DNA from: Naegleria gruberi
Lineage: Eukaryota
DNA: 64,000 nucleotides
NCBI GenBank assembly: GCA_000004985.1
Contig: GG738886.1
Direction: 5' to 3' (one strand)
The notes below the pieces were generated by a model. It searched no databases and was not told the origin of the DNA. It saw only the letters and a program-made list of their open reading frames with translations. The translations under genes were made by a program, and so were the position numbers. Positions 22,501 through 61,905 of this stretch are shown here, in pieces; the stretch's first letter is position 1, and every line of letters starts with the position of its first letter.

Positions 22501-22585
22501 TAGTTATTGCTCCGAAAGAGATTTGTTTCAATATAAAATTTCATCAGCACTGAGTACGAGCTTAAACTTAATCTCAAACATTTTG

Positions 22586-22979
22586 TTTTATTTACAATTT
22601 ACTGAATTATTTACAAGTTGTAATTTACATCTTTTTCGATTTGGTAATCTTCTTAGCTGTGGTGGTTGATTGTATTGAATTTTTCAAAGATCTTTTCACC
22701 GAAATTTGTTTACCATTTAAATTAGCATGATGATAATCAATATTATTACGATGTCTAGTTCCACTCATAATATTTGAAGTATCAATATCAAATAATGATA
22801 ATTTTAGATAAATCAATTGGTTTAGATCTTGTCCTTTCTGTTTTTATTGGAATTCTATCTTTGGATGATGAAGAATTTGATGAAGTATTTCTAGCTGACA
22901 TTTTGCTCTTAGTTTTTGTTATTTAGTTATTTTGTTTTGTTGTGTAAATTTCATCATCGATACCAGTTATCTATTTCCA
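22586..22979 (-). repeat. dispersed repeat copy 1 (inverted B segment 22586..22897 + A segment 22898..22979) with frameshifted small basic ORF
   Basis: The minus strand is about 90% identical to 61569..61905. A 2-nt deletion splits the ORF into MSARNTSSNSSSSKDRIPIKTERTRSKPIDLSKIIII* and ...LFDIDTSNIMSGTRHRNNIDYHHANLNGKQISVKRSLKNS...KKITKSKKM*. Confidence 0.7.
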
Positions 22980-23226
22980 TGATGATTCCACTAATTTTAT
23001 GATTCGGATTTTTGGATTTTCCACTCATCACAAGAATTTGAATTAATAAAGAAATTTTCATCTGGATATTGTTGTTTCTCCTCTTTGCGCACTCAGAGGT
23101 AATTAGATTTTGGTCAATAGAGGTGCATTCATCGTGATATGGCATTCTTAAAATATACAATTAAGGTTTCAATTGGATACAACCAACAGTGTGCACAGGT
23201 CATTAGAATTGTAACAATTAAAAAAA

Positions 23227-23544
23227 ATGGGAAACTTCTTTTCGTCGAATAATCTTTCGCGAGTGAAAGAACTTCCAGATGAAATTTTATTTACAGAAAT
23301 TTTATCCTATTTGCCTTTGAGAGATTTACCGAATCTTTTGGTTATTTCTAAAGATTTCAATCGGAAAGTGTTGTCATCACACAGTTTATTATATCAGTTT
23401 AGTTTGTATACAAATCCATTCATTTCACTTTCGAATAAAACTGATTTAAAAGATAGAAAAATGACCTATTCCGAAATGAAGAAGGAAATAATTGAATATG
23501 ATTCAATGATTCATAGAATTAAATATTCAAAAACCGTAGAATAA
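23227..23544 (+). CDS. small F-box protein with N-myristoylation motif (MGNFFS)
   Basis: F-box LPDEILFTEILSYLPLRDLPNLLVISKDFNRKVL. Confidence 0.55.
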   Translation: MGNFFSSNNLSRVKELPDEILFTEILSYLPLRDLPNLLVISKDFNRKVLSSHSLLYQFSLYTNPFISLSNKTDLKDRKMTYSEMKKEIIEYDSMIHRIKYSKTVE

Positions 23545-24019
23545 TTTTTTGAATATTTAAATTGTAAATAATTAAGAATATTAACTTAAATGTGTTACTG
23601 ATAAGAGTTTATGTACCACATTTAATACTAATTAGTTCTTTATTCAAATTACTTTATTCGAAACAAGGCTATTCCAGTAAATTCCATGTACGATTCGCCT
23701 AAACGTATGTTAAAAATCTACCAATTCTTTTGAAAGATGTGATGGTTTCATTTGACTTTTGTTGACATTTCGAATAAAAAGCAATTATCTCTAAAATTAT
23801 TCATCATTAATTCAATTTTCATGTGCACAAACCTGAACATTTAATCTAATCTCACCATTTAATAAAATTTTGATGGCCACGAAAAGTCTTTCGCTCAAAA
23901 AAGGAAACCTTCAAAAAAGGAAACTGGTTAAATAATTTCCAAAAAAGAATCTGAGCTCGTTTCATTTGTGATGTTCGTAGACTTTAAGGGTCTCTTTCAA
24001 GAAGAATCACAACAAGAAA

Positions 24020-25813
24020 ATGGGTCAAAACATTCATGCTCCACGTGTTTTCATTTCCTCTAACGAAAAGCAAGGAGACGAATATGTAATTAGTGGAAAC
24101 CTTTCGAATAACAGTTCAACACCAACTAATCTCCACAGTCATAATGTATTTGATGATGCACATTCTAATGGATTATCTCCACCTCATCCTTCTGGTCAAG
24201 CTCCTTTAATTATTGTTGGAGGTTCTTCAAGTGGCAGTAGTAGTGGAGGTGATGAAATAGTTTCGTCTCCTTTCCATTCACCTCGTTCTCCAAAATTTGT
24301 TAGAAATCATGACGATGTAATATTTGACAATCTTTCTGATTCTTCCTATTCTACTTCTCCACAAAATTCACCGAAACTAACCTCAAGAACCAAGAGAATG
24401 AGCTCTGGTCCAAACTACTCACCAAAACTTGAAAATTTTAGAAAGACTCAACAGCAACAAACTAAACAACCAACTGTTTGGTTTTCTTCTGTTTCTAATG
24501 AATCTGATTGGATGGACCATTCGAATAGATTTGCTCATACCAAAAAGCAAAAAATGGTTCTCATGTTAAGTTATGGAGTAAATACTCATTCTGAAGATTT
24601 ATTTCAATATTGGTTTCAGAGATTTTTACCAAAAAGTGAAGAAACACAAACCAAAAGCAAGATTATGCAATTGTGTGCTTTATATTTGAGAAGATTGTGT
24701 TTTGCATATGTAAATAGAAGTTGTTCATCTCAATTAATTCAAGAATGTTCTACATCAACTTGTTCTAATGAAGGTGTTGATCAGATGGTGGACTATTCGA
24801 AAACATTGAAAAGGTTTGATTCATGGTCATTATCACCACTCACTAGAGAAGAAACATTTTCACATGATGATTTCATCAATGAACTCATTGACATGTTAGT
24901 TAACAATGATGAATCATTTATTTTACAATCACTTGGTCATTGGAATGCAAATATTCTCACAAATATGGAATTGTTATGGAAGAGTGAGGCTATTCAACGT
25001 GCAGCCTCTAAATTAGTTGAACAGCAGGTTTACATGGATGAGAAAGTTTATGCAGAGTACTTTTTAAATTCCATTCCTCACTTATTAGATTCTAGTTACA
25101 ATTTAACAGTTTCAGATTTATCGAATGCACAGAGACGTAAATTCAAAATTAATGAAATTAAGATTGTCGATCAGGGAAATTATGATTGTCTCTATTCAGT
25201 ATTGGATATTTCAAGTATGGGAGGAGAAAAGACGAAGTGGTTGAGATCATTCAATAACGTTGATGGATTTTTAATGATTTTTTCACTAGATGAGATAGCT
25301 CAAGACAAATCAGTCCTTCAGAAATCTTTGCATTCCTTCAGAGAAATGACTAGTTACTTCTTTGGAAATAATCAGCAACAAAATGGATGTAAAACTCAAA
25401 TCTATGTATGCTTTTCCAATGTTGCTGAATTCTGCAAATTGGTCAAATCAGAAGAATTACCACTTCAACATTCACTCAAAGGAGATGTCAAGAATCCTTC
25501 CATAGTTTTCAAATATATAGTTTCCCAATTCATGGCCAGTAATGGCAGTTGTTCCAATAATTTAACAGAGAGAAATCCAACAAGTTCTCAAAACATTTCC
25601 TTCTATGCCATTGATAGTTTCTCAGACTATTATTCAATGTACGAATTTACGAGTTATTTACTTGAGGGAAGAAATTATTTCAGTGAACTGATAACAGGTG
25701 CTAAGGAGAAGAGAGAAGTATCGAGGAGAGGTGAATTGTTTTCCATGTGCAAATTGAGTCATGATGATAAATTGAAAAGGAAATTGATAGATATTTCATT
25801 TAACTTTGAGTAA
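24020..25813 (+). CDS. G-alpha-like protein with degenerate GTPase motifs and Ser-rich N-terminal extension
   Basis: The C-terminal 350 aa align to the G-alpha helical and Ras-like domains (LWKSEAIQ vs LWKDSGVQ; LYSVLDISSMGGEKTKWLRSFNNVDGFLMIFSLDE vs [36 protein letters not shown]). The P-loop, DVGGQ and NKxD motifs are not conserved. Confidence 0.6.
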   Translation: MGQNIHAPRVFISSNEKQGDEYVISGNLSNNSSTPTNLHSHNVFDDAHSNGLSPPHPSGQAPLIIVGGSSSGSSSGGDEIVSSPFHSPRSPKFVRNHDDVIFDNLSDSSYSTSPQNSPKLTSRTKRMSSGPNYSPKLENFRKTQQQQTKQPTVWFSSVSNESDWMDHSNRFAHTKKQKMVLMLSYGVNTHSEDLFQYWFQRFLPKSEETQTKSKIMQLCALYLRRLCFAYVNRSCSSQLIQECSTSTCSNEGVDQMVDYSKTLKRFDSWSLSPLTREETFSHDDFINELIDMLVNNDESFILQSLGHWNANILTNMELLWKSEAIQRAASKLVEQQVYMDEKVYAEYFLNSIPHLLDSSYNLTVSDLSNAQRRKFKINEIKIVDQGNYDCLYSVLDISSMGGEKTKWLRSFNNVDGFLMIFSLDEIAQDKSVLQKSLHSFREMTSYFFGNNQQQNGCKTQIYVCFSNVAEFCKLVKSEELPLQHSLKGDVKNPSIVFKYIVSQFMASNGSCSNNLTERNPTSSQNISFYAIDSFSDYYSMYEFTSYLLEGRNYFSELITGAKEKREVSRRGELFSMCKLSHDDKLKRKLIDISFNFE

Positions 25814-26228
25814 AATATTTCAAAAATTGGATTTGATTTTAAAATTTTGAAATATTTCATTCAATTATAGAAATTATATTATTGAATTGATTTAAATAAT
25901 AGAATAATAATATTAAATTGCTTTTTACAAAGGCCTTAATTTTACTTCTCTCCAATAAATTAATCAGCCTTCTAAAAAGCCTTCTTTGAGTTCCAAAAAA
26001 GTACTCTATGAAATTTCCATAACATCTAACTCTCCATCACGATCATATCGATTATCATCTTTTATTCATCACAATTCTTTCATTCATAACCAAATTGCAA
26101 TATTACTAGATAATATTATCTTTTGTACAAACAACACATTTATGCTTGTAGTATTTAATGCCATAACGAGTGATCAATAAAGGGGTCCAAAAAAGAAACT
26201 TTTTTAATAAGAGACCACTCACAAAAAA

Positions 26229-27846
26229 ATGAAGACCTTCCTCTCACGTGTTGCCTCTCAATCAAAGAAAGGTACGTAATTTATTCGGCTCTTTATGTTG
26301 TTAATTATTGTTCTTCTTCTTCTGTTGTTGACTAATTTAAATTGTGCAATGTTGGCGCGGATATTGATATTTTGTATTGAAATTTTACTTTGATACAAAT
26401 AATAATAACAATTACATTATCACTTGTACCAATAATAATAACAATAACACTAATAACAAATAATGCTGCTGCCTAACTTCATCATGATGTTTCTTTCTAC
26501 ATCTAATACAATCACGAAAATATTTAAAAATGTTCTTTAATATTCAACTAAAATGATCTGTGAAATTGATTGGATTTTCTTCATCTTGGTAAATAGTTAA
26601 TTCTATTAACATCAAGAATACCACACAACAAAGATGCCTCAACATTCACGAATATCAAGCTAAGGAACTCTTCAAACAATTCGATGTTCCTCACCAAAGA
26701 GGTATTACCATTGATAACTTGGAAGCCATTCCAGCTACTCTTGCTCAATTGAAGACTGAAACTGGTACCAAGAACTTTATTGTCAAGTCTCAAATTTTGG
26801 CTGGTGGTAGAGGTAAAGGATCATTCATTGAAAATGGATTCCAAGGAGGTGTTAAATTCACAAAGAACGAACAAGTTGCTGCTGATGTTGCTAGCAAAAT
26901 GCTCGGTAATACTCTCGTAACTAAACAAACTGGTGAAAAGGGTATCAAGGTCGACAAGCTCTTCTTTGCTGAATGCTTGGACTTTAACAGAGAATTCTAC
27001 TTTGCCATCCTCTTGGACAGAGCTGCTCAATGCCCAGTTTTCGTCGGAAGTTATGAAGGTGGTATGGATATTGAACAAGTTGCTGAAGAAAAGCCAGAAG
27101 CTATCAAGACTTTGCTCATCAGAGATCTCGAAAATGGTCCAACTCTTGCTGATGCCACTGAATATGCTAAGGAACTCCAATTCAAGAAGCCAGAACAAGC
27201 TGCTCAAATCATGAAGAAGTTGTACACCATGTTCCGTAAGACTGATGCTGCTCAATTGGAAATCAATCCACTCGTTGAACTTGATAACACTGCTGATCTC
27301 TCATGTGTTGACTGTAAATTGAACATTGATGATAATGCTGCTTTCAGACAAGCTAACATCTTTGCTATGCGTGATTGGGCTGCTGAAGATCCAAGAGAAG
27401 TTGAAGCTGCCAAATGTGAATTGAACTATATCGGATTGGATGGTAACATTGGTTGTTTGGTCAATGGTGCTGGTTTGGCTATGGCCACTATGGACATTAT
27501 TCAATTGCACGGTGGTGCTCCAGCTAACTTTTTGGATGTTGGTGGTGGTGCCACTACTAACCAAGTTAAGCAAGCTTTCACTATCATTTTGAAGGATGAA
27601 AGTGTCAAGTGTGTTTTGGTCAACATTTTCGGTGGTATCATGAGATGTGATGTTATTGCTGAAGGTATTGTTCAAGCTGCTCGTGAATTGGGTGTCCGTA
27701 TTCCAATCGTTGTTCGTTTGGCTGGTACTAATGTTGATAAGGGTCTCCAAATCTTGGAAGAAGCTGCCAAGACTGGTACTCTTAAGGTTATTGCTGCTAA
27801 GGATCTCGATGATGCTGCCATCAAGTCAGTTGCTCAATTGAAATAA
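26229..27846 (+). CDS. succinyl-CoA ligase beta subunit, 2 exons
   Basis: Exon 1 (26229..26271) reads MKTFLSRVASQSKK plus a presequence. A 325-nt intron (26272..26596) runs from a GTACGT donor to an ..aaatag acceptor. Exon 2 (26597..27846) reads ...RCLNIHEYQAKELF...LAGGRGKG...GGIMRCDVIA.... Codon usage is C/G-ending and biased. Confidence 0.85.
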
Positions 27847-28292
27847 ATAATTTCTACTAATTTGCTAATTTAAATCACCTTAGATTAATTAGAAAATGCA
27901 AACAGTTCACATTTGTTCAACATCAAACAATATTAAAAAATGTCACAACAAGCAAACAAAGGAAAAGTTGCTCTCGTTATTGTTGGGTAGGTTTAAATTG
28001 ACATTATTCATCATAACCTCCATCAACATTAAATTATCAAACGTGATCATCTGTTATTATTATTATTATCAGATCTGTGGGTTGCATCTCGGCCGTTTCC
28101 TTTTTATTCTCCTTATCAATGGCTATCTGGGGTTGTATGTAGAATTGTATAAAGATAATAATAATAATAATATATTCAATATATATTTAATCTTGATCAT
28201 GATCAATATTAATTTCTTCAGTTACCGTTCATAATGATATCAAATTAGATAAGAATAGTACAGGTTGCACATCTGAAACTATATCCGATTTA

Positions 28293-28758
28293 ATGTTAGC
28301 CTATTGTATATTACTTGTTATTACAGCTTGTGGAAGTATTTGTAATTTATTAACTTCAATTTTAGATCAATGTTGTTGTGGTAATGGTGATAACACCAAT
28401 GGAGATGAACAAAGTAAGAAACCGAAACCATTTAATTCTCTATCACAATGTTGTTTTGCAATACTTGGACTTGCTGTTTGGGGTGTTTTAATTGCCTTGA
28501 CTGTTTACTTGTAAGTTTTCAGAACAAGTTGATGAAGAATTTAAATTGTTTAACATTAATTTATTGAAATATTCAAGATATAAGGATTCTTGTAGAGAAA
28601 TGAGAAAGGAAATGTATTCCTTAATGAATCCATTCATTATTACTCAATATGTTGCATTCCCATTGTTCTGTGTATGTGCAACTTGTTTGGCAATTTGTGT
28701 TCAATGTTGTGCAGTATTTGCTGTTGCTGCATTTGATGAAAGATATAGCAGAGTTTAA
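28293..28758 (+). CDS. small Cys-rich two-TM membrane protein, 2 exons
   Basis: Exon 1 (28293..28510) ends at TT|GTAAGT. A 67-nt intron (28511..28577) precedes exon 2 (28578..28758), which is in frame with the second ORF. Confidence 0.45.
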
Positions 28759-28811
28759 ACATTTCAATGTAGCTTGAAAAAACTCCTGATTATTTATTTA
28801 TCTATGGAATC

Positions 28812-30845
28812 TTATAAAGATTTCTTTTCCAAATCAACTCCACAGTAATATTTACAATAATCGTAGAGGATCTTGGCAAGATAATTGGAGGAGAATGATG
28901 GCATTGGATTTCCCTTCTCTTTGGCTTCTTTTACAGCTTTGAGAATGCCATTATAATTGTCCATACAGAGCTTTTTGGATGAAATTGGATTGGTAAAGAC
29001 GAATTTCTTATTGAGGAAACCACCAAGGTTACAAGTTCTAGCTTCAACATAACGAGTTCTGTACTTGTCAACCATGTTGTAAATTCTGGAACCAACAAAT
29101 GGACACTTGATCAAATCCTTGATTTCTTCATTCTTGACGAAATCACTTGATTTGAATAGGAAGGCGTTTTCAATAAGTTTCTCACCATGGAAATGAGATT
29201 TGCTTGAAAATACAAATTGAACTCCTCTCAATGAGAATAGCGGACCAAAATCAAACTTGGAAGTCATAATTACAGCTGGATACTTTTGAATGGAGCTTGC
29301 AGCATTAATTGGAGTATAGTAATGCCATTGGACATTGTGGAAACAATATTCAAGATGACTATCAAAGTGTGTAGATTTCACAACGTCATTAATTGGATGA
29401 TCAAAATAACCAACAATCTTGGAATTTCTCAATTCTAAATTATCTCTGGAGTGATCTTCATCTGAATTCCATTGCATTACATTTGGCAATTTGGAATAGG
29501 TTAAATACCAATCACCACCATGTTCCCTACACATCCAATTTGAAAAGTTCCAATCACTGTCAATAACATGCTTGATATTCAAATCTTCATTATTGAACTT
29601 GAATTCTCTGTTGGCCTTCTCATTCTTCTCCTTCTTCTTTCTATAGATTTCAACAACATATTTTGGAAGATTTCCATCAACCAAACCATTCTCAAACCAC
29701 TTCCTGACCTTCTTGTTTTGTTTAAATTCAAAGATTGCAAACCAATCACCCAATTCTAATAGGAACATGTTACAAATGAGTTTAATTTCATCAAGCAGAC
29801 CAACAGTGAATCTATTCTCCTCAGAGATGGTTCCTCCAGTGCTATGAACCAACTCTTCCTTAGAGAGAAGTGCATGTTTTGGATCTTTACAATTCACACT
29901 TTGAGCTTGTAAGAATTCTCTCAAGTACACGTGTCTGAATAGTGGAGTATGATCCAATTGACTTGGTAGATACTTTAAATAGAACCATACCTTATCTGGT
30001 GATTCACTTTTAAGCTTTTCAATTTCAACAGATTCGTATGGCATCTTTAAAGCAATCAAAACTTTACAAAACAAATCCAATCGACTGAAAACAGCTTCAC
30101 TCGATTTGAAAACCTTTGATGGAACTTTCTCATTAATTGGATCAAAGAAATGTTCCAAAAACATCAACTTGATCTCAAATTCATTTGCCATCTTTGCTTG
30201 ATCTTCACAATAATCAAGGAATTTGTGTTTCAAATTTTCAATAATTTCATCACTGTTAGTTTTTGGAACTGGTTGATCTTGATAGTAAAAGTTTTGATGA
30301 TAATATGGTACAGAACTGTTGTGAGTGGTATTTAGTGGATTGGCTTGACAGTTATTTGGTGAGATACTCAAGTTATTTGGATTAGGTTGAGCATTGTTTG
30401 GATCTTGTAAACTGGAGAATGAATCAGACGAATCTGAATGGCCAGATTCAGAAGAATCGTATAGATTCGAACCAACAATACTTGTTGGTGTGGTACATTC
30501 AGCTGAATTTAAACTACCAGAACTGTTTCCATACATATTTATGAAATACTCCTTATCAGTGGAGCCAATTGATGAAGTACTATTGTTGACAGGACTTCCA
30601 GGTGAATTTCCAGTACCATGATTAGTGACATTTAGAAATAAATTGCTAGAGGAAGTATCTTTTGATTTGGAACTACCTGATGAGCTAGTAGAAACTGCAC
30701 ATGAACTTAAATTAGTTGAGTTATTCAAAAGATTTGCATATACCACACGTGGGTTGAGTAGAATGGTGACTGGAAGGATGAGTGGTTGTTTGTTTGGAGT
30801 TAGTTGAGTAGTTTCGTTTTTGGTGGATTTTCTGTTGTTGGCCAT
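28812..30845 (-). CDS. START-like lipid-binding domain protein with Ser-rich N-terminus (paralog A)
   Basis: The C-terminal 330 aa are paralogous to 40503..43109 (KWFENGL...EIYRK...HVIDSDW...LTYS...FSLRGVQFVFSSKS...NLGGFLNKKFVFTNPISSKK). Confidence 0.6.
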   Translation of the reverse strand: MANNRKSTKNETTQLTPNKQPLILPVTILLNPRVVYANLLNNSTNLSSCAVSTSSSGSSKSKDTSSSNLFLNVTNHGTGNSPGSPVNNSTSSIGSTDKEYFINMYGNSSGSLNSAECTTPTSIVGSNLYDSSESGHSDSSDSFSSLQDPNNAQPNPNNLSISPNNCQANPLNTTHNSSVPYYHQNFYYQDQPVPKTNSDEIIENLKHKFLDYCEDQAKMANEFEIKLMFLEHFFDPINEKVPSKVFKSSEAVFSRLDLFCKVLIALKMPYESVEIEKLKSESPDKVWFYLKYLPSQLDHTPLFRHVYLREFLQAQSVNCKDPKHALLSKEELVHSTGGTISEENRFTVGLLDEIKLICNMFLLELGDWFAIFEFKQNKKVRKWFENGLVDGNLPKYVVEIYRKKKEKNEKANREFKFNNEDLNIKHVIDSDWNFSNWMCREHGGDWYLTYSKLPNVMQWNSDEDHSRDNLELRNSKIVGYFDHPINDVVKSTHFDSHLEYCFHNVQWHYYTPINAASSIQKYPAVIMTSKFDFGPLFSLRGVQFVFSSKSHFHGEKLIENAFLFKSSDFVKNEEIKDLIKCPFVGSRIYNMVDKYRTRYVEARTCNLGGFLNKKFVFTNPISSKKLCMDNYNGILKAVKEAKEKGNPMPSFSSNYLAKILYDYCKYYCGVDLEKKSL

Positions 30846-37392: not shown

Positions 37393-37406
37393 AATGAGAG
37401 ATTTCC

Positions 37407-43109: not shown

Positions 43110-43138
43110 TTTTTTGTTGTAAATTGTAACTTATTCAC

Positions 43139-45485: not shown

Positions 45486-45598
45486 TAACAATTATACAAT
45501 CAACTTCATTCTTAGGAGCTCATCGCTCAATTATTCTTTTAAAGACCTTGCCAACAATGATCTGTGGCTAAAATCACGTGACAAATTAGGTCTTTGGC

Positions 45599-49755: not shown

Positions 49756-49805
49756 TTTTTTTTAAAATAAGACGAAACAATATCAAAATTTTGAAATTCA
49801 AAATT

Positions 49806-49878
49806 TGCCGACACCAGGGATCGAACCAGGGACCTTAAGATCTTCAGTCTTACGCTCTCCCAACTGAGCTATGTCGGC
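49806..49878 (-). tRNA. tRNA-Phe(GAA)
   Basis: The reverse complement GCCGACATAGCTCAGTTGGGAGAGCGTAAGACTGAAGATCTTAAGGTCCCTGGTTCGATCCCTGGTGTCGGCA gives a perfect cloverleaf with anticodon GAA and a downstream T-run. Confidence 0.9.
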
Positions 49879-49938
49879 TTCTTATTTTATCATACAAATT
49901 TTCATACAAGTGAATTATTCCCGAAATTTATCAATTGT

Positions 49939-51042: not shown

Positions 51043-51124
51043 AATGATCGCACTTCCTCTTAGTGCGAAGGATTTGGTATTAAATGTTATTACAATTCAT
51101 ATGGAAGAAGGAAATAATGTATTA

Positions 51125-52081: not shown

Positions 52082-52196
52082 CAGAAGACAATTTTTTTAA
52101 TTAATTTAAATTTAAATTAATTTATTAATAATTTGTTTAATATTTTTGGCGCGAAAGAAGTGTTCGACCATCCACAAGAATTTAGAAAAAAAAGAC

Positions 52197-54896
52197 ATGA
52201 TGAACCTACACTTTATTCGGAGGGGACTTTCTCCTCATCAGAACCAACAACATACTTCTGGTAGTGCGAGTAATAGCCAACAATCAAATAATAGCAAACA
52301 AACACCAAATAATAGCATGAGTAATACGAGTAATATGAATTATAGTACAAACCAACATTCTAATTCTTCTTCCTCATCTTGTAGGAAGAGAACTTTGGAG
52401 TATAGTATCGATCTGGATGATTTACCTTCTCCTCCATCCTTATTTTCCTCTGCTTCTTTAATAGCCACAATGAATGCAGTTACCATGATGAATACTAATG
52501 AAACTCTAAAACAATCATCACCCGAAGACGATCAAAAAGCTTCAATAGAGAATGTTATCATGTCCGATGATCCAAATGAAGAACAGCAACAAGAAGAAGA
52601 GGAAATAATCATTTCTCAAACTGATGATGAACCAATCCTTAAAACACAATTCCCACCCTTTTCAATAGTAACAAGTTTGAAAAAAAATGATTCATTAGGG
52701 GATAGTGAGAGTGAGGATGATGGAGAATATGAAGATTCTAATGATGAAGATGAATTGAGGGAGTTTTCAATTAAACAAGTCGAACAATCGACTAAGAAGA
52801 GAAAATTAAATATTGTAAATAAGGAGGATAATAGAAAATCGGAACAGTTAGAGGATAATTCAAAACCAATCATGCTCTTGACTCAATTACCTCCAATGTC
52901 AACATGTGAGGCAAAACAAGAAGACATTACTGTAGTGGTAGAACACCCTATTGATGAAGAAGAGTTTCTAAATAATGCAACAGTCCCTCAGGAGAATGAG
53001 ATGATCAAATCTTTGGAGGATAATATTATTGAGGAACTTGCATTTACTCCAGATCAAGAAAATAACATTGAGAATTTATCCCAAATTCCAAAATTGGAAA
53101 ATAATAGGCAATTAGAGGAAGATTTTGATATTCATGTTGACTTACACGAGTTGGATTATGAATTTTCGAATAATACAGAACCAGCCCAAAAACCAGAAGA
53201 ATCAATTCAAGCTAAGAAGGTTCTTGTTGACATTTCCGTTCAAACTGATAACAGTCTCCTTCCAAAACCTGTACAAATTGTAAATAGCGATCCAAATAAT
53301 ATCTGTTCCATTTGCTTAAGTGCATGGAGCAGTACTGGACTACATCAAGTGTGCTGCCTTTCGTGTGGCCATCTTTTTGGTAAGAATTGCATTGAGAAAT
53401 GGTTGAAAAAAAACTCTACATGTCCAAAATGTAAAAAATCTGCAGATAGAAGTCATATTAGATTACTCTATGTGGACAATATTCATGCCATAGATACACA
53501 AAAAGTTGAAGATTTAGAGAGTAGATTGGAAGCAGAAGTTAAAGCACGAAAAGAGCTGGAGGTAATCAAAAATGGTCTCGAATTGAGAATTAAAATGCTT
53601 TTAGAGCAGAAAGGAGGTGAGAATTTTGCAGAGAACCCTTCATCTTCCCCCCCTAACAACAAGGGTGTTCAACACCGTTCAAGCTCAGAATCAGACACCA
53701 ATAAGAGGAAATCATTGATTCAACGATCGTTAGAACTTGCAGAAAGAAAAAAGAAAGAGTTTGATTTAATGAATTCTGAAGAGGAGGAAGTTACAAGAAA
53801 CATTGTCTGTTACAATGGGAAATCAAAAAATCAACAATCCAGAAAAAAGAACACCTATCTATATGGATCGAATGGAGCTAATAAGCTTCTATTCAATACT
53901 CCACTTGAAAATTCTGGCTTGATAGAAATTAGCAACAATCAAGTATTTATATCTTTTGAAAGAAGGGATAAAATGTGTGGATTTTATGTTGCTGGATTGG
54001 AAAGATTAATGAGTAATCCATCCATAATTAATCAGGCAAGGAAAGTAATGCATAATTCACCAATATCAGATATCAAACCACTCTATCTTCTTTCACCCAA
54101 CAATTCTAAAGGTTACTCTATTGAATATATGCAATCTAACCTTATTTTAACTTCCTCACAAGATAAATCAATGAGAATTACTGATCTACGACAAGGAACA
54201 GCGGACTCTATATGTTTTTTCCCTTATCTATCAACCAATAGAGAAGGTTTATCAACATCTATTACTTGTTGTGAATGGAATAGAACCAATTCAAACTATT
54301 GTTTTGCAGGACTATCATCAGGTTCAATTCTATGTTACGATACTAGAAAACCAAGTGAACCTTTTTTAAATACTGGGGATCATTCATGTTCTCCACATAC
54401 AATGTTTCACATACCCAACAAGGGCCTAGTAGTAGGCTCAAATAATTCCATTACCTACTATGATGAAAATCAATATGGTTATACAAAGGGACATAATTTA
54501 TTTAATAAGGAAGTTTCTTCATTCTACTTTAATACTTCAAATGATACCCTTTTATTCACATGCAGGGAATCATCAAAATCATCTCAATTACATATATTCA
54601 CTCTTGAAAGCAATCAACATGTGAATTGTTTAGAGAGTATCAGTATCAATCACAAAGGACCAAAACTAGGAAGGCCATATGTCTCAGATAATGGTCAAAA
54701 CTTTCTTTCCACAATAGCAGTTCCAAAGCCAGATGATTTTTCTGTAGAAATTTGGAAATCTCAAACAGATCAGGACTATTCATTTAAGGGTGATATCAAA
54801 TTACAATCTAGCACTGAAATTATTCAAAGTTGTGCCCTGTCATTTAATAATCTGTTTGTTGTTACAAAAGACAATCTTAGTGCATACTTGGTTTAA
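52197..54896 (+). CDS. RING finger + coiled coil + C-terminal WD40-like E3 ligase (RFWD3-like architecture)
   Basis: C3HC4 RING CSICLSAWSSTGLHQVCCLSCGHLFGKNCIEKWLKKNSTCPKC, followed by a coiled-coil and a beta-propeller-like C-terminus. Confidence 0.6.
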   Translation: MMNLHFIRRGLSPHQNQQHTSGSASNSQQSNNSKQTPNNSMSNTSNMNYSTNQHSNSSSSSCRKRTLEYSIDLDDLPSPPSLFSSASLIATMNAVTMMNTNETLKQSSPEDDQKASIENVIMSDDPNEEQQQEEEEIIISQTDDEPILKTQFPPFSIVTSLKKNDSLGDSESEDDGEYEDSNDEDELREFSIKQVEQSTKKRKLNIVNKEDNRKSEQLEDNSKPIMLLTQLPPMSTCEAKQEDITVVVEHPIDEEEFLNNATVPQENEMIKSLEDNIIEELAFTPDQENNIENLSQIPKLENNRQLEEDFDIHVDLHELDYEFSNNTEPAQKPEESIQAKKVLVDISVQTDNSLLPKPVQIVNSDPNNICSICLSAWSSTGLHQVCCLSCGHLFGKNCIEKWLKKNSTCPKCKKSADRSHIRLLYVDNIHAIDTQKVEDLESRLEAEVKARKELEVIKNGLELRIKMLLEQKGGENFAENPSSSPPNNKGVQHRSSSESDTNKRKSLIQRSLELAERKKKEFDLMNSEEEEVTRNIVCYNGKSKNQQSRKKNTYLYGSNGANKLLFNTPLENSGLIEISNNQVFISFERRDKMCGFYVAGLERLMSNPSIINQARKVMHNSPISDIKPLYLLSPNNSKGYSIEYMQSNLILTSSQDKSMRITDLRQGTADSICFFPYLSTNREGLSTSITCCEWNRTNSNYCFAGLSSGSILCYDTRKPSEPFLNTGDHSCSPHTMFHIPNKGLVVGSNNSITYYDENQYGYTKGHNLFNKEVSSFYFNTSNDTLLFTCRESSKSSQLHIFTLESNQHVNCLESISINHKGPKLGRPYVSDNGQNFLSTIAVPKPDDFSVEIWKSQTDQDYSFKGDIKLQSSTEIIQSCALSFNNLFVVTKDNLSAYLV

Positions 54897-54941
54897 ATGC
54901 TTGCAATACCGTTTATTAGCATCTTGTCTGGGTTAATAAAA

Positions 54942-56906
54942 TTATTTAATATCCAGGTTTGGAGTTTCAACTCGTGCGTTTGCCAAATTCTCTATACATT
55001 CCAAATGGTAAGATACAAAATTGTAAACTGATGGATCAGTAACTTTCAAACTTTCAATACTTTCTTTAAACTCTTTAAATTCTCCAAGAAGTGGTGTTAA
55101 TTCATCCTTTGATTTTAAAAGTACGGCCTTACACAAAAGTTTTTGTAAAAAAACTCTTGGATCCTGTTTGTACTTTTCAATATAAATATCAATTTTTTCA
55201 AGACATTGATCAGCAAGTCCTAAATCAACCATACAATTAGTTGCACCGAAAAATGCTTCCACAACAATATTCTTGTTGTGAAGGTCAAAATCATATTGGT
55301 CTACTGTAGCATAGGCTTCAATAGCCGATTCATACATGCCACAAGAGTGATAACATACACCTTGATTCATATATAAAATAGGAATATTTGGATGTCTCGA
55401 ATATAGTTCTGTTTGGCTTGAGTAATACAGCCCATTGTTGCCATGCATTTGGCTAGCCTCTACTGAATCAGCAGTTTTTGAGGCCCTAGCATAAACATGG
55501 GCCAATAATAGAGAAATTGGTGTGAATTTGAGATCATTGATCCTCTCCACTTGTTGTTTTGACTCCACTTCTGAAAATTGATTTTTGGAAATATTTGGAT
55601 ATGGAAGCATTGGCATTGTTGAAAGTATCTGAAGTGCCTTCTCTAAATGTGAAATTGCTACCAAGTAATGTTCATTGGCTTGGCTTTCTTGTGTGTATTG
55701 TAAGGTTTGGGCTGTTGCAGTCACACTGTAGGCATACAAGTAGTGAAGATAGATATTTTCTGGTTCTGCATTCACACATTCTTCCAGGATATCCAAAATG
55801 GCTTCTCTGTTTACAGTGTCAAACTTGGCATTTAACTCGGTTGTAGCCTTAATGGCTCTGATAAAATTTCCAAGATGTATTGGCATATCTGTTTCAACAT
55901 CCTCAAACCAATCAAATTCCTCCTCTGAAAATGTTCTATCCAGGTAGGAAAATGCATTCTGATGAGCATTATTTTTCAAAGTATCCATATCAGTAATTTG
56001 CTTGGCATTAGTGTATGCATTCTTAGTAATCTCATAGGCAGAGCTTAACGATTCTGCATAGTTGCACAACTCGTTGAGATCACCTGGACCACCTCTAATT
56101 CTAAAAAAGACAAAAAAGCAGGCAGCAATTAATGATTCCTTTGTAGAAAGATTGATATTTTGAATTTGTGGCACAAAAGCAGAGTTGGACAATTGTGCTT
56201 CATAAATGGAAAATAATAAAAGAGTGTCATCTACTTTGGAACCAGTAGGATACAAGTATCTGAATGGTTCTACACTTGCCTCTGGATTGAATGCTCTTTG
56301 TAACTCTTCGAGAGAGAACCATTCTTGATTAACACCTTTCAAAAGCAATAGTTCAACCTTTTTCATGAGAATGTAACTCTTCATACCAATACTCGAATTG
56401 TAAAATTTAGTGTTGGTTGAATCAGCTCTTGGAACTGTTTGATGGCAATAGGATATTAACTTTAAAATTTCATCAAATAATCCAGAACCTTGAAAAGTTT
56501 GATCGGGATGATTAATTCTATTTTGCATAATAAAACTGGTAATTTGTTTAAATGTATTATCCAAAAATTGATAATTTTCCAATAATTCTGCTTCTTCTTG
56601 AATACTTAATGTGTTATTGTTATTAGAATCAGAAAGATTTTTGGATGAGAAGGAGAATGATCTTTTTGTTATATTGTCATTATGAAGATTAAAAATTGAT
56701 ACTTTTCCTTCCTGACAATGATGATTAATCCATGATGATGATGATAAATTTCTGCTACAATAATTAGAGAAAGATGATGATTGCGCTGGTATTATCTTTT
56801 TGAAAATATTTCTTCTTATCAGTGAAGCTGATGATGAACAAGTAGAAGTAGTAATATTCCGATGTTGATGTAATAATAAATTTCTAACGAGTTGTTGTTT
56901 CTTCAT
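54942..56906 (-). CDS. hypothetical protein with TPR-like C-terminal region
   Basis: ATG-initiated ORF of 654 aa. Confidence 0.5.
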   Translation of the reverse strand: MKKQQLVRNLLLHQHRNITTSTCSSSASLIRRNIFKKIIPAQSSSFSNYCSRNLSSSSWINHHCQEGKVSIFNLHNDNITKRSFSFSSKNLSDSNNNNTLSIQEEAELLENYQFLDNTFKQITSFIMQNRINHPDQTFQGSGLFDEILKLISYCHQTVPRADSTNTKFYNSSIGMKSYILMKKVELLLLKGVNQEWFSLEELQRAFNPEASVEPFRYLYPTGSKVDDTLLLFSIYEAQLSNSAFVPQIQNINLSTKESLIAACFFVFFRIRGGPGDLNELCNYAESLSSAYEITKNAYTNAKQITDMDTLKNNAHQNAFSYLDRTFSEEEFDWFEDVETDMPIHLGNFIRAIKATTELNAKFDTVNREAILDILEECVNAEPENIYLHYLYAYSVTATAQTLQYTQESQANEHYLVAISHLEKALQILSTMPMLPYPNISKNQFSEVESKQQVERINDLKFTPISLLLAHVYARASKTADSVEASQMHGNNGLYYSSQTELYSRHPNIPILYMNQGVCYHSCGMYESAIEAYATVDQYDFDLHNKNIVVEAFFGATNCMVDLGLADQCLEKIDIYIEKYKQDPRVFLQKLLCKAVLLKSKDELTPLLGEFKEFKESIESLKVTDPSVYNFVSYHLECIENLANARVETPNLDIK

Positions 56907-57267
56907 TTTTTTTTCTTTAAAGAAGCCTTTTTTGTAGTTTACATTATTTACTGTAATGATGTTAAATAGTTATTTTTCTTTACAATAAATATTTAACATT
57001 ACAGTAGCTTACTTTGTTAACAACAACGTTTGTGGTTCAACTATGTGTGAAAAACAGCATCTTTGATATTCACACACCGATTCTTTAACAAACCGATGAG
57101 GACGTACTTTCTGCATAGTTTCTACGTGCTCTTTCTTCCTCTTCGTCCTCAATATACAAATTAGTAAATATGGCGCCAAAATGAAAAACACATAAATGCA
57201 AGGTCATGACACCTGTGAACCACACAAGAAATACAAAACAACAATCAAAAAAATAACATTAAACAAA

Positions 57268-58292
57268 ATGGTCAAGGTCCTCGTTCTTTTCTACTCTACT
57301 TATGGTCACATCTGGCAAATGGCTGGTTCGTATCTAGATTCAATGAATATAATTTATTAATCAATATTTTTCAAATAATTGCTCAACTTTTTTGATGTTA
57401 AAATTATAATAATAATAATTATTAATACAAAAACAACTCAATTTGATATTTTTTAACATTGAAATAATTAGAGGCTATTGCTGAAGGTGCTAGACAAGTT
57501 GAAGGTGCTGAAGTTGTTGTCAAGAGAGTCCCAGAAACTCTCCCAACTGAAGTCTTGGAAAAGATGTACGCTGTTGATGCTCAAAAGGCCTTTGCTCACA
57601 TTCCAGTTGTATGTATTGATATAGTTATAATTACATATTTATTAACTTGAAATCATTCAATTTTTTTTGATTGACCATCTTGTTATTGAACTACTCATTA
57701 ACATTATCAAAATAATATGAAAAATAATAGGCTACTACTGAAGAGCTCCCATCCTATGACGCTATCATCCTCGGTTCACCAACTAGATTCGGTACTATGG
57801 CTGGTCAATTGAAATCCTTCTTGGATGCTACTGGTGGTCTCTGGGCTACTGGTGCTTTGGTTGGTAAGGTTGGTTCCTTCTTTACTTCTAGTGCTACACA
57901 ACACGGAGGAAATGAAACAACCATTATTTCATCTATCCCAGGTTCGTATTTTTATACTATATTTGGTAATAACCATTTTAACTTTATTTGAATTATTTCA
58001 TTTATCAACAGTCTTCCTTCACCACGGAATGGTCTATGCTGGTTTGCCTTACTCTTGTGCCACTCAAATGGGTTTGGACGAAATTAAGGGAGGTTCACCA
58101 TACGGTGCTACTACCATTGGTATGTTTTGAATTATGTTGAGTTTTATTAATATTTATTAATCAATTATTTTACTGAAATAATCTGAAACAGCTGGTGGAA
58201 AGGGTGAAAGATTACCATCTGACCAAGAAAAGGAAATGGCTAGATTCCAAGGAAAGCACGTTGCTACTCTTGCTAAGAAGTTGTCCCAATAA
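57268..58292 (+). CDS. WrbA-type NAD(P)H:quinone oxidoreductase (flavodoxin-like), 5 exons (204 aa)
   Basis: Exons 57268..57325, 57472..57608, 57731..57941, 58012..58119 and 58192..58292. Introns have GTTCGT or GTATGT donors and ttag, atag or acag acceptors. Product [44 protein letters not shown]...[31 protein letters not shown]...[31 protein letters not shown]..., with C/G-ending codon bias. Confidence 0.85.
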
Positions 58293-58802
58293 TTTATCAA
58301 TTTTAATTTATTAAAGATTTAATTTTTAATCTCAATATATGATGAATCAAAGATTTTTAATCTCAAAAAATTATTCAACTGAGCTTTAATTTGTTGGAAA
58401 TCAAAGTGCATTCGGCATCATTTCTCTCCGAAGATACACCTCTCTTCATTTCTTGCATGAATATTTTATTAAGAATCAATTGTAATGCCTAAATCCATTC
58501 ATTCAACAATGAATTCTTCATTCATTTATATAAATTATTATCATTTAACTTGTTCTGACTTAGATTACGTTCTAGATTTCCAACAAAGTAGCATCTGCAT
58601 TCTAGATGATAAGCATTACAATTATAGTACATCCACATTTCAAGTATCAGATTACAACTATTTGTTAAAGTAACTTACAAGGAGAAAATCATCTCAATAG
58701 CATTACATGACATTTGGTTGATTTTATATGAATGCATGAATAAACATTCCATTCTTGGACGAACCATTGATTGTGTGAATGTAGCAAAATCAATGATTTA
58801 TT

Positions 58803-60020
58803 TCACACTTGTATGATTGGTGCTGTATTGGTTGTTGTGATAATAGTTGTGGTCTTTAATTGCACAACCTTGGAATCTGATTTTAAATCTTCTTCACTTA
58901 CAAAATCCATATTTGCCTGTTGCAATAAATATTCCTCTCTTGCTCTAACTCTAATGCAGTACCATCTCAATAAAACCAGAACAATACAGCTAATGAATGA
59001 TACACTGAACAGGAAGAGCGTGAGGGTAATATAAATAATGAGCTCATCTGATAGGGCTGCACATGGCCATCCAATGGGTTGAACAGCAATCCTTGTTGCC
59101 CTACCACATGATGCAAAAGCTCTCCATTCTAAATTCAAATGATTTGACATGAGTTCAGTGAATACCTGTCCACCTCCATACCAACTCACAGTTGAGGTAG
59201 TTACCAAAATTTTGTAACTACAATTCGAACCCTTCACACAATAATAATCAACTGGAATGTTTTTAACTGTTTGATGTTCATAGAATGGTGAAAATACTAC
59301 ACTGCTCTGAATGGGTGAGTGACAAATAACTCTTTCTAATGGAAATGATTCCTCAATCTTGATATTAAACGTCACTACATTCATTGAAGATAAAACCAAT
59401 ACAATTTTTTTTCCTAATTTAGGAATGGCTTGTAAGGATATTTCAACCTTACTAGCGTCTTCATTCCCAACCGAGACGAATAATAATTGGGTATCCCTTG
59501 TATCATTGTTACTTTCTATATTCTCCTGGAAAGCCATTGATTCACTTGTTGTGCAGGCAAGACAAAATTGAGTATTCAATTCAGGAATTATGTAAGCAGA
59601 AGGTTGTTCCGAATATGAAGCAGTTGATGATAATTCCTTTCCTACTACCATGCCAATACCACTATTTAAAACCAGTATTATCATACATAAACATAATATA
59701 CAAATTATTTGATAGAGTTGATGAAGTGATATGGAAGATAATGTTTCTATTATTATCATTATTAGAGGATTATTTTTCCTCTCCACTTCCACTACTGTAT
59801 TTGCATTCTTTTGCTTATTAATTGTTTCATAACGATTCTTCTGGTTATAATTAGTATTAGTGGTGATGATGATTGTCTGATGATGATTATTCATTGACAA
59901 TTCCCGTTTTTTGGTAACGTTAGATTTCGAGACTGTTTTTTCTCCTGACATTGAATCATCATCATTGTTGAAACATTCCATCCAACAAGTGGTGTACCTA
60001 CTAGTAGTACAACGGAACAT
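58803..60020 (-). CDS. membrane protein (N-proximal and C-proximal TM segments)
   Basis: ATG at 60020, 405 aa. Confidence 0.5.
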   Translation of the reverse strand: MFRCTTSRYTTCWMECFNNDDDSMSGEKTVSKSNVTKKRELSMNNHHQTIIITTNTNYNQKNRYETINKQKNANTVVEVERKNNPLIMIIIETLSSISLHQLYQIICILCLCMIILVLNSGIGMVVGKELSSTASYSEQPSAYIIPELNTQFCLACTTSESMAFQENIESNNDTRDTQLLFVSVGNEDASKVEISLQAIPKLGKKIVLVLSSMNVVTFNIKIEESFPLERVICHSPIQSSVVFSPFYEHQTVKNIPVDYYCVKGSNCSYKILVTTSTVSWYGGGQVFTELMSNHLNLEWRAFASCGRATRIAVQPIGWPCAALSDELIIYITLTLFLFSVSFISCIVLVLLRWYCIRVRAREEYLLQQANMDFVSEEDLKSDSKVVQLKTTTIITTTNTAPIIQV

Positions 60021-61015
60021 GTTGCTGTTAATTCAGGTAATAAAAAGGAGTTTGGAGTTTGGATGAGTGAATATTCTACGTATACGTTGATAATGAAAAA
60101 AACCCGCCTTGATGATTTACAGTAGAGACTCCACAACTTTTGATCGAAGGCTTTGCGTTGTTGTGTGTCCTGTTGATTTGATGACTGTTTGATCAAAAAA
60201 TGTTGTGATGATGAATTGATGAATAGAAATTTCTTGTACTGGAGATGAAATATTGAAAATGGTGGTTCGGATTCTTTGTGGATCTAATAATAATAATATT
60301 ATCTGTTGTTGAATATGAGAAGAACTATTCGTTTGTTTTTTTCATTATTGAACCATCACGTCTCATCTGTGATTCTCCAGCAAACAATGGTACATGATGG
60401 AAACACTTGATATGTTGTGTGGTGATGCACTGTTACATATTGTTCATAATATTGCAAATTGGAAGGTTATGATAATTAGCAGAGAAATCAATCAAATTTC
60501 GTCTAATCACTTTGGAAATGGATGGATAAAGCGGCCAATAAAATAGTAGATCTTCTATTCATTGACAATGTTTACAGTTAAGGGAACTGTAGATTCATTT
60601 GTTGGAATTGTAATGTCTTGTAAAATTGAATAATTTGAGAATAGTTGGAAGTTTGAAATAACTATTGACAAGACACTTCTTAATTAGGTGAAGAACTTTT
60701 ATTTACCAAGCGAAACGTTGTATTTATTGTTGTTTGCGAGCATTTTCCTTAAATCCAAATTCTCTTTAGTATCCATTGAAAGCAACTCTTTATTCCAATC
60801 TTATTTCTTAGTTCAAAAATTTGAAAATGCACTGAATAGTCTACATCTTTTTACGGAATTAGGAAATAATAAGACATTATATTTTTAGAGGGATAATTTG
60901 TTGAAAAATATTAATTTTCCTATTTGAAAAATAACTATATCAAGTTGTTTACTTAAATGGCTAAAGTCAAGCCTCATTACTCTCTTTTAATAAACCTTAA
61001 CTTAAGATTGTGAAT

Positions 61016-61133
61016 GGCTACGGCCATATCACGATGAATGCACCTCATCCCGTCCGATTTGAGAAGTTAAGCATCGTCGAGCCACATCAGTACTGAGGTT
61101 GGAGACAACTTGGGAACCTGTGGTGCTGTAGTC
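61016..61133 (+). rRNA. 5S rRNA
   Basis: GGCTACGGCCATATCACGATGAATGCACCTCATCCCGTCCGATTTGAGAAGTTAAGCATCGTCGAGCCACATCAGTACTGAGGTTGGAGACAACTTGGGAACCTGTGGTGCTGTAGTC plus TTTT; the termini pair as helix I. Confidence 0.9.
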
Positions 61134-61289
61134 TTTTAATCTTAGATAAATCAACAGGATTCAAATTGTGCGTATTGAGCTTGAGAGGTTATAAATAACA
61201 TTATGAACTATTGTAAATATTGTGTGAATGATTTAGGTTTTATTTACAATGATTTGCCTAGGTTTACAACATTTTGAGTTAAATGGAGA

Positions 61290-61505
61290 TTACCACTTTT
61301 TGAATTGTTTGTTTCTCATTTCTAAAGTATTATGTGATTGAGATTTGGAAGTTTTGCTTGTTTCACTTCCAATAGAATTCAATGTTTTGTAATCAATTAA
61401 ATTTCTTTTTCTTGTTCCACCCACAATATTATCCAGAGAAATTTCGGAAATAAATTGTGAAGTGTTATTGGAGGAATTATACATATTTCTTCTTGTTGAG
61501 ACCAT
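61290..61505 (-). CDS. diverged paralog (B') of the small basic SGTRxRNxIDY protein family
   Basis: DNIVGGTRKRNLIDYKTLNSIGSE compares to SNIISGTRHRNNIDYHHANLNGKQ. The ATG lies inside the shared A segment, and the gene is divergently oriented from the B copy. Confidence 0.45.
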   Translation of the reverse strand: MVSTRRNMYNSSNNTSQFISEISLDNIVGGTRKRNLIDYKTLNSIGSETSKTSKSQSHNTLEMRNKQFKKW

Positions 61506-61905
61506 TTTCTTATTGTTATTTTGTTTTGTTGGGGAAATTTCATCATCCGATCAACAGTTATTTATTTCCAGCTAGAAATGCTTCATCAAATTCTTCAAAT
61601 TCTTCCGAAGATAGAATTCCAACTAAAACACAATGGACAAGATCTAAACCAATTGATTTATCTAAAAGATTACCATTATTTGATATTGATACTTCTAATA
61701 TTATAAGTGGAACTAGACATCGTAATAATATTGATTATCATCATGCAAATTTAAATGGTAAACAAATTTCAGTGAAAAGATCTTCGAAAAATTCAATTGA
61801 AAAGAGAGCTAAACAACAATCGAACACCACAACTAAGAAGATTACCAAATCGAAAAAGATGTAAATTACAACTTGTAAATAATTCAGTAAATTGTAAATA
61901 AAATA
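61502..61905 (+). repeat. dispersed repeat copy 2 (A 61502..61570 + B 61569..61905) with intact small basic ORF frame (no in-frame ATG)
   Basis: About 90% identical to the inverted copy at 22586..22979, with near-identical sequence through the stop codon and 45 nt beyond. A ends ttatttatttccag, which is acceptor-like. Confidence 0.7.

What the first reader, a model, noticed from the sequence alone, without database searches (positions are those of the whole stretch)
22586..61905. A 400-bp repeat in inverted orientation 38.6 kb apart encodes a small basic-protein family in a palindromic arrangement
Locus 2 is B'(minus)-A-B(plus): two divergently transcribed paralogs (...SGTRHRNNIDYHHANLNGKQISVKRS... 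and ...GGTRKRNLIDYKTLNSIGSE...) around a segment A of about 70 bp. Locus 1 is rc(B)-A, with B about 90% identical, including 45 nt past the stop codon, to locus-2 B but frameshifted. A abuts the 5' end of B by opposite ends in the two loci, so A is flipped relative to B. In locus 2 the B frame lacks an ATG and is preceded by ttatttatttccag, an acceptor-like sequence.
Basis: seen in the sequence. Interest (0 to 1): 0.55.

Follow-up and report, generated by a model that had tools for sequence, protein, structure and literature searches.

The report
Duplicated 5S-linked CHZ histone-chaperone-motif gene pair
The inverted 350-bp repeat is two decaying copies of a small Naegleria gene for a basic protein with a histone-binding (CHZ) motif, part of a conserved head-to-head gene pair that sits next to 5S rRNA genes; it is ordinary gene duplication and decay, not a mobile element or a spliced gene.

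Summary
B (22576-22897, minus) matches 61569-61913 (plus) at 88% over 345 nt, and A (22914-22979) matches 61505-61570 in direct orientation, so A is flipped relative to B.

The window is Naegleria gruberi nuclear DNA. B and B' are paralogous genes for 71-100-aa, very basic proteins with a CHZ motif, the H2A/H2A.Z-H2B binding motif of yeast Chz1. Both evolve under purifying selection.

Related contigs and N. fowleri show the canonical layout: B'(-), a 232-247-bp spacer, then B(+) with its own ATG. A 5S rRNA gene lies beside the pair in N. fowleri and one contig.

Segment A is the B-type core promoter and 5' leader.
- Locus 1 is a canonical B copy turned pseudogene. It has a 2-nt frameshift, an 18-nt deletion and changes at invariant residues. 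B' is deleted and the 5S gene truncated.
- At locus 2 the spacer has collapsed to 62 bp. The B-type leader now faces B', and B has lost its leader and ATG at a CCA junction.

The 'splice acceptor' is the reverse complement of the purine-rich leader plus that junction.

There are no target-site duplications and no transposase, and the 38.6 kb between the loci holds ordinary cellular genes. This is a new member of a known kind, of low to moderate interest.

The parts
22545..22624 (-). 3' UTR of the locus-1 B copy. The repeat formally ends at 22576 and residual homology reaches about 22545.
22625..22901 (-). psi-B, the locus-1 pseudogene copy of B. ATG at 22899-22901 and stop at 22625-22627. It has a 2-nt frameshift near 22801-22803, an 18-nt in-frame deletion in the C-terminal part, and changes at two residues invariant across the family (P2S, W23R) plus one seen in no close copy (I46M).
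22902..22979 (-). B-type 5' leader with a TATA-like AAATAGATAA.
22980..23050 (-). Upstream promoter region of B (CTTGTGATGAGTGGAAAATCCA...). It is shared with metagenome copies L001 and L002 and is absent from locus 2.
23120..23175 (-). Truncated 5S rRNA pseudogene: about 30 nt of the 5S upstream flank plus part of the 5' region of 5S (a 24-nt exact match to 61023-61046), with the first few bases lost.
   Evidence: It is below Rfam detection.
61016..61134 (+). Intact 5S rRNA gene adjacent to the 3' end of B'
   Evidence: RF00001, 105 bits
61290..61505 (-). B' gene: 71 aa, basic, intact ORF, CHZ-like motif NIVGGTRKRNLIDY. No N. gruberi protein in the database matched it.
61506..61570 (-). Segment A at locus 2: a B-type core promoter and leader now oriented toward B'. 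Only the last 9 nt or so before the B' ATG are B'-type.
61568..61864 (+). B at locus 2: a 97-codon open frame plus stop, with CHZ domain, lacking leader and ATG. The junction is at CCA 61568-61570. It equals XP_002668573.1 'predicted protein, partial'.
61865..61940 (+). 3' UTR of locus-2 B

Best explanation
The two inverted repeat copies are paralogous copies of one small nuclear gene (B) of Naegleria gruberi. B and its distant paralog B' encode 71-100-aa, lysine/arginine/serine-rich proteins whose conserved core is a CHZ motif, so they most likely bind H2A-H2B or H2A.Z-H2B histone dimers (inferred from the motif only). In the genus Naegleria the two genes form a conserved head-to-head pair separated by about 240 bp. 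That spacer carries each gene's own promoter and A/C-rich leader, and the two leaders form an imperfect inverted repeat. A 5S rRNA gene lies beside the pair in three of the four places where the flank can be read. The window holds two copies of this 5S-B'-B cassette in opposite orientation, both damaged. Locus 1 keeps the canonical B promoter and leader (segment A plus a further 70 nt) but is a dead copy: B is frameshifted, B' is deleted and 5S is truncated. At locus 2 a rearrangement across the inverted leader repeats, either an inversion or a template switch, was combined with a deletion of about 180 bp ending at a CCA microhomology. This left the B-type promoter and leader pointing at B' and removed B's leader and start codon. 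Segment A therefore looks flipped relative to B because at locus 2 it now serves B'. The 38.6 kb between the copies is ordinary single-copy chromosome. Shown here: the anatomy, homology, selection and comparative layout. Inferred: histone binding, the order and mechanism of the rearrangement, and that locus-2 B is not expressed.
For: Organism: B is 100% identical to an N. gruberi protein, and the window carries nuclear RNase P RNA, 5S rRNA and tRNAs. CHZ motif: Pfam PF09649 scores 28.5 bits against a cutoff of 23.3 for B and 16 bits for B'. The only PDB hit is Chz1 in 2JSS, aligned over IDTSNII-SG-R-R--IDY. CHZ is described as a general H2A/H2A.Z-H2B binding motif (PMC6544321). Real genes: dN/dS is 0.18-0.27 for B and 0.21-0.41 for B', with 7 synonymous and 0 nonsynonymous differences between L003 and L004. 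Intact homologs exist in N. fowleri and Willaertia magna. Canonical layout: B'(-), a 232-247-bp spacer, then B(+) starting with ATG in L001, L003 and N. fowleri L005. A 5S gene is adjacent in L003 and L005. Locus 2's spacer is only 62 bp. Its B' leader scores 84 and 68 against the B-type leaders of locus 1 and L002, but 33 and 26 against the B'-type leaders of L001 and L003. Locus 1 shares a further 70 nt of upstream sequence with L001 and L002. It also carries a truncated 5S with its upstream flank, a frameshift, an 18-nt deletion and substitutions at invariant residues. The leaders form 19-32-nt inverted repeats 137-165 nt apart in all three canonical spacers.
Against: No transcript data were available, so the non-expression of locus-2 B and psi-B is an inference. 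Locus-2 B still has an intact 97-codon frame with dN/dS of about 0.2 against its relatives. That fits a very recent loss of the start codon, but it fits continued function by another route equally well. Only one close relative (L001) shows the canonical B' leader. The alternative that N. gruberi leaders are homogenised by gene conversion, rather than rearranged, cannot be excluded without the other N. gruberi copies, such as the NAEGRDRAFT_69990 locus, which the tools could not fetch. The proteins are strongly basic and lack the acidic DEF/Y element of fungal Chz1, so histone-dimer binding is not assured. The 5S linkage is not universal: L004 has no 5S within 300 bp of B', and the Willaertia homologs have none.
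Confidence: 0.8

Rival explanations
1. Locus-2 B is a functional gene that acquires its start codon by splicing. A short upstream plus-strand exon would be joined to the AG at 61570-61571, across an intron that contains B' on the other strand.
For: The sequence ttatttatttccag precedes the open frame. An in-frame candidate exists: ATG 61203 with donor ATT|GTAAAT at 61212/61213 and a 359-nt intron, plus six other in-frame ATG/GT combinations. The B frame is intact with dN/dS of about 0.2.
Against: All canonical copies start with their own ATG at exactly this point and need no intron. The pyrimidine tract is the reverse complement of the leader and also occurs at locus 1, where it is followed by 'catg'. 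Seven in-frame ATG/GT combinations in 430 nt of AT-rich DNA is what chance gives. The NCBI model for this gene is a 5'-partial protein with no upstream exon.
Confidence: 0.08
2. The inverted copies are the terminal repeats of a 39-kb composite mobile or invertible unit.
For: There are inverted repeats of about 345 bp at 88% identity, 38.6 kb apart. Such repeats could in principle mediate inversion by homologous recombination.
Against: There are no target-site duplications and no sharp outer boundary. No transposase, integrase or reverse transcriptase was found among the ORFs scanned. The interior is cellular genes and a tRNA. The repeats are gene copies whose homologs elsewhere stand alone, without a partner repeat.
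Confidence: 0.03
3. Segment A is a reversible promoter switch. Recombination between the inverted leader repeats flips the promoter region so that it drives either B or B'.
For: Imperfect inverted leader repeats flank the spacer in three lineages. At locus 2 a B-type promoter and leader is found in the flipped orientation in front of B'.
Against: Only one flipped instance was seen, and it is accompanied by a deletion that destroys one repeat arm and B's ATG, so it cannot flip back. No recombinase is nearby. The repeats are short, imperfect and low-complexity A/C-rich leaders. All other copies are in one orientation.
Confidence: 0.04
4. The locus-2 junction, or the locus-1 frameshift, is an assembly or sequencing artefact.
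For: The region is repeat-rich: 5S copies, a ubiquitin tandem and paralogs.
Against: The NCBI protein XP_002668573.1, on an 11.9-kb contig, reads YLFPARNASS across the same junction. Locus 1 carries many independent lesions, not one indel.
Confidence: 0.03

Closest known systems
CHZ-motif proteins (yeast Chz1, Arabidopsis AtChz1, human HIRIP3; Pfam PF09649)
   Same: They share the CHZ motif (..IDTSNII.SG.R.R..IDY..). The motif scores above the Pfam gathering threshold for B and aligns to the Chz1 segment solved with H2A.Z-H2B in 2JSS. The motif is described as a general H2A/H2A.Z-H2B interaction module (PMC6544321).
   Different: These proteins are much shorter (71-100 aa) and strongly basic (pI 10.3-10.9), with no acidic tracts and no DEF/Y motif. 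They have their own flanking conserved motifs: KTEWTRSKPID.SKR at the N-terminal side and KRSSKN(S/T).EKR at the C-terminal side. These motifs are shared only with heterolobosean and unnamed metagenomic homologs. They are paralogous, head-to-head and multi-copy.
Linkage of 5S rRNA genes to other small multicopy genes (histone genes, spliced-leader RNA, snRNA genes in various eukaryotes; from general knowledge)
   Same: A 5S gene sits within about 100-250 bp of the B'/B pair in N. gruberi, in a related metagenomic Naegleria contig and in N. fowleri. A 5S fragment was co-duplicated at locus 1.
   Different: There is no tandem array here. The position and orientation of 5S relative to the pair differ between N. 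gruberi and N. fowleri. N. gruberi is reported to have about 279 5S copies (PMC3369914), so adjacency may partly reflect the density of 5S genes.
Dispersed segmental duplicates that decay to pseudogenes; rearrangements at quasi-palindromes (template switching, microhomology-mediated deletion)
   Same: One copy has a frameshift, deletions and loss of neighbouring genes. The other has a deletion ending in a 3-nt microhomology next to inverted leader repeats.
   Different: Nothing unusual. The mechanism is inferred from end products only.

Membership tests
CHZ domain family (PF09649) | Match to the Pfam CHZ HMM at or above the gathering score (23.3 bits) | tested here: met
   B scores 28.5 bits, E 1e-6. 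B' alone scores 16.0 bits, below the cutoff, but is a significant paralog of B across the motif. The N. fowleri ortholog scores 22.0 bits.
CHZ domain family (PF09649) | Sequence correspondence to the Chz1 segment that contacts H2A.Z-H2B in a solved structure | tested here: inconclusive
   The only PDB hit is 2JSS_B (Chz1), aligned at residues 29-54, but E is 0.85.
CHZ domain family (PF09649) | Binding of H2A-H2B or H2A.Z-H2B dimers | not testable with these tools
   Needs ITC or pull-down with recombinant proteins.
Fungal Chz1 orthologs (H2A.Z-specific chaperone) | [quoted passage not shown] | tested here: not met
   B has 21 K+R against 7 D+E and pI 10.9. No run of D/E followed by F/Y is visible in the sequences. 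It is a CHZ-motif protein, not a Chz1 ortholog.
Composite or TIR-bounded mobile element | Target-site duplication directly outside the inverted repeats | tested here: not met
   No direct repeat of 5 nt or more at the outer ends, and homology fades gradually.
Composite or TIR-bounded mobile element | Encoded transposase, integrase or reverse transcriptase | tested here: not met
   Pfam scans of 30 ORFs of the window gave only cellular domains or no hit. Several ORFs without Pfam hits remain uncharacterised.
Spliced gene (intron acceptor in front of locus-2 B) | Conserved intron position in paralogs and orthologs, or transcript evidence | tested here: not met
   All other copies carry an ATG at this position and have no intron. 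Transcript evidence is not testable here.
5S rRNA (RF00001) | Covariance-model score above the gathering threshold | tested here: met
   61016-61134 scores 105.4 bits and 63301-63419 scores 106.5 bits. The locus-1 fragment is detected only by BLAST and pairwise alignment, not by the model.

The most novel reading that the evidence does not exclude
The 5S-B'-B cassette is a unit that Naegleria genomes repeatedly copy and rearrange, and the inverted leader repeats in its spacer act as a recombination or template-switch hotspot that can re-aim the shared promoter from one CHZ-motif gene to the other. That would be a eukaryotic promoter-flip affecting a pair of histone-binding mini-proteins, physically coupled to Pol III 5S genes.
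Probability: 0.05. Interest if true: 0.6.

Novelty: new member of a known kind. Interest (0 to 1): 0.22.

Why it matters
The result mainly improves annotation.
- It defines a heterolobosean family of very small, basic CHZ-motif proteins. No N. gruberi protein in the database matched B', and B is recorded only as a partial hypothetical protein.
- It shows that the genus Naegleria keeps the two genes as a head-to-head pair, usually beside a 5S rRNA gene.
- It explains an odd-looking 'flipped' segment as a promoter and leader displaced by a local rearrangement.

If the proteins do bind H2A-H2B dimers, they would be among the smallest CHZ-motif histone binders known to me. That would make them a convenient minimal model for the motif. 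Nothing here challenges current understanding.

Tried and rejected
- Exact-sequence look-ups of window proteins and of the two N. gruberi NCBI proteins found no contigs. The third N. gruberi copy (NAEGRDRAFT_69990) could therefore not be inspected.
- A scan of JGI metagenome contigs with the B alignment found no relatives.
- Rfam found nothing at locus 1 beyond noise, so the 5S fragment there rests on BLAST and pairwise alignment.
- Rfam gave no family for the conserved element X.
- A literature search for Naegleria plus Chz1 found no papers.
- The composite-transposon reading was considered and rejected: no TSD and no transposase.
- The splice-acceptor reading was considered and rejected, because the canonical copies have an ATG there.
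- P0008, a 1005-aa bacterial repeat protein in the HMMER search, was judged a false positive from its repetitive, unrelated sequence.
- No structure prediction was run, because 70-100-aa low-complexity basic proteins are expected to be disordered and a model would add nothing.
Full report
**1. The observation**

Self-BLAST of the window aligns 22576-22897 to 61913-61569 in inverted orientation: 88.1% over 345 columns, E 3e-108. It aligns 22914-22979 to 61505-61570 in direct orientation: 86.8% over 68 columns, E 4e-13. The repeat finder reports the first match as three ungapped arms of 132, 98 and 67 nt at 91-95%.

The homology covers a coding region plus about 50 nt of 3' flank and fades over a further 30 nt or so. 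It is not low-complexity sequence.

**2. Where the window comes from**

The window has 32% G+C. It carries a nuclear RNase P RNA, two intact 5S rRNA genes (61016-61134 and 63301-63419) and three tRNA genes. Its long ORFs encode eukaryotic domains: F-box-Ras, G-alpha, DUF4116, RING-WD40 and polyubiquitin.

The locus-2 B protein is 100% identical to 'predicted protein, partial [Naegleria gruberi]' XP_002668573.1. A second N. gruberi paralog, XP_002674900.1 / NAEGRDRAFT_69990, lies on another scaffold.

**3. What B and B' are**

- **Motif.** B matches the Pfam CHZ histone-chaperone domain above the gathering threshold (28.5 bits against 23.3). B' matches below it (16 bits).
- **Paralogy.** B and B' are 45% identical over 47 aa including the motif, pairwise E 8e-10.
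- **Structure hit.** A profile of B hits a single PDB chain, Chz1 in the Chz1-H2A.Z-H2B complex 2JSS, across IDTSNII-SG-R-R--IDY, but weakly (E 0.85).
- **Known role of the motif.** It is described as a general H2A/H2A.Z-H2B dimer-binding module. H2A.Z specificity in fungi comes from extra elements, namely acidic regions and a DEF/Y motif (PMC6544321). The Naegleria proteins lack those elements.
- **Composition.** The proteins are strongly basic, with pI 10.3-10.9.
- **Selection.** Both genes evolve under purifying selection. dN/dS is 0.18-0.27 among B copies and 0.21-0.41 among B' copies. Two B' copies differ by 7 synonymous and 0 nonsynonymous changes.
- **Wider family.** A full HMMER search finds 80-150-aa relatives and two longer ones. 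They include an intact 100-aa N. fowleri protein and two Willaertia magna proteins. All share KTEW.RS.P.D..KR, the CHZ motif and KR.S.N..E.R.

**4. The canonical locus**

Four metagenomic contigs (L001-L004) and the N. fowleri locus L005 were retrieved.
- **Pair layout.** In L001, L003 and L005 the layout is B' on the minus strand, a 232-247-bp spacer, then B on the plus strand starting with its own ATG (MPARN... or MDSRT...).
- **5S position.** A 5S rRNA gene lies about 170 bp beyond the 3' end of B' in L003. In N. fowleri one lies about 240 bp beyond the 3' end of B, on the opposite strand.
- **Decayed copies.** L004 is a copy in which B has lost its leader, ATG and first 20 codons or so, while B' stays intact. 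L002 keeps only the 3' end of B'. Decay of individual copies is therefore recurrent.
- **Age.** The Willaertia homologs are solitary and not near 5S. The pair plus 5S arrangement is thus a feature of the genus Naegleria.

**5. What A is**

In locus 1, L001 and L002 the sequence directly upstream of the B ATG is the reverse complement of A. It consists of a TATA-like AAATAGATAA and an A/C-rich leader (ACAACAAAACAAAATAAC...). A further 70 nt upstream is also shared (CTTGTGATGAGTGGAAAATCCA...). A is therefore the core promoter and 5' leader of B.

At locus 2 the same segment lies upstream of B'. Scored against 90-nt leaders, the locus-2 B' leader gives 84 and 68 against the B-type leaders of locus 1 and L002. 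It gives only 33 and 26 against the genuine B'-type leaders of L001 and L003. Only the last 9 nt or so before the ATG (aataagaaa) are B'-type.

The locus-2 spacer is 62 bp instead of about 240 bp. B homology begins at codon 2, and the junction reads tatttCCAgctaga. In canonical copies the end of A reads tatttCCAtg and the start of B reads atgCCAgct. This fits a deletion ending in a CCA microhomology.

In all three canonical spacers the two leaders form an imperfect inverted repeat of 19-32 nt, 137-165 nt apart. That gives a substrate for an inversion or a template switch.

My inference is as follows. A rearrangement across these inverted leaders, plus a deletion of about 180 bp, turned the B-type promoter toward B'. 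The same event removed B's leader and ATG. The 'acceptor-like' ttatttatttccag is the reverse complement of the purine-rich leader plus this junction.

**6. Locus 1**

Read on the minus strand, locus 1 runs as follows:
- A truncated 5S gene, made of its 30-nt upstream flank and part of the 5' region of 5S (a 24-nt exact match to the intact gene).
- A remnant of the spacer.
- The canonical B promoter and leader.
- B, carrying a 2-nt frameshift, an 18-nt deletion and P2S, W23R and I46M. Positions 2 and 23 are invariant across the family alignment, and position 46 is unchanged in the close copies.

B' is missing. Locus 1 is a dead, partly deleted copy of the same 5S-B'-B cassette in the opposite orientation.

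**7. Not a mobile unit**

There is no target-site duplication or sharp boundary at the outer ends. No transposase-like domain was found. The intervening 38.6 kb encodes ordinary cellular genes and tRNA-Phe. Homologous copies elsewhere occur singly.

Splicing into locus-2 B cannot be excluded without RNA data. Seven in-frame ATG/GT combinations exist upstream. It is unnecessary, however, and no other copy supports it.

**8. Verdict**

The thing itself is a duplicated and decaying copy of a small gene cassette. Its mildly interesting content is threefold:
- a lineage-specific family of CHZ-motif mini-proteins;
- their conserved head-to-head pairing next to 5S genes;
- a promoter and leader flip at one copy.

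Novelty: new member of a known kind. Interest: low to moderate.

Noticed in passing
window 62050-62152; N. fowleri L005 4053-4155: A non-coding element of about 100 nt just 3' of locus-2 B is about 85% identical to a segment next to B' in N. fowleri, although the surrounding intergenic DNA does not align. RNAalifold predicts three hairpins with 4-5 compensatory pairs on either strand. There is no Rfam match. It is probably an unannotated small RNA gene; strand and class are unknown.
   Followed up: partly
window 60999-61160 and 63284-63445: Two intact 5S rRNA genes 2.3 kb apart share only 17 nt of upstream and 26 nt of downstream flank (162 nt at 94%). 5S genes therefore appear to be dispersed as solo units of about 160 nt. 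A short 5S-like 5' fragment (aatggctacgg...) also lies near 62254-62285.
   Followed up: partly
window 62617-63075: A two-unit polyubiquitin ORF (152 aa) explains the 228-nt tandem repeat at 62616-63071. It lies between locus 2 and the second 5S gene.
   Followed up: yes
window 18223-18352 and 19595-19723: A duplicated tRNA-Leu(TAA) gene with about 130 nt of shared sequence (97%) flanks an F-box-Ras-domain ORF (18447-19595).
   Followed up: no
window 11778-12039 (-): Nuclear RNase P RNA gene (RF00009, 66.8 bits).
   Followed up: no
L004 (metagenome contig, reverse complement around 790-810): Another Naegleria-like copy of the pair in which B has independently lost its leader, ATG and first 20 codons or so, while B' is intact. 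This suggests recurrent loss of B 5' ends.
   Followed up: partly
window 8533-8591: A 60-nt perfect-centre palindrome (90% self-complementary) was reported by self-BLAST.
   Followed up: no
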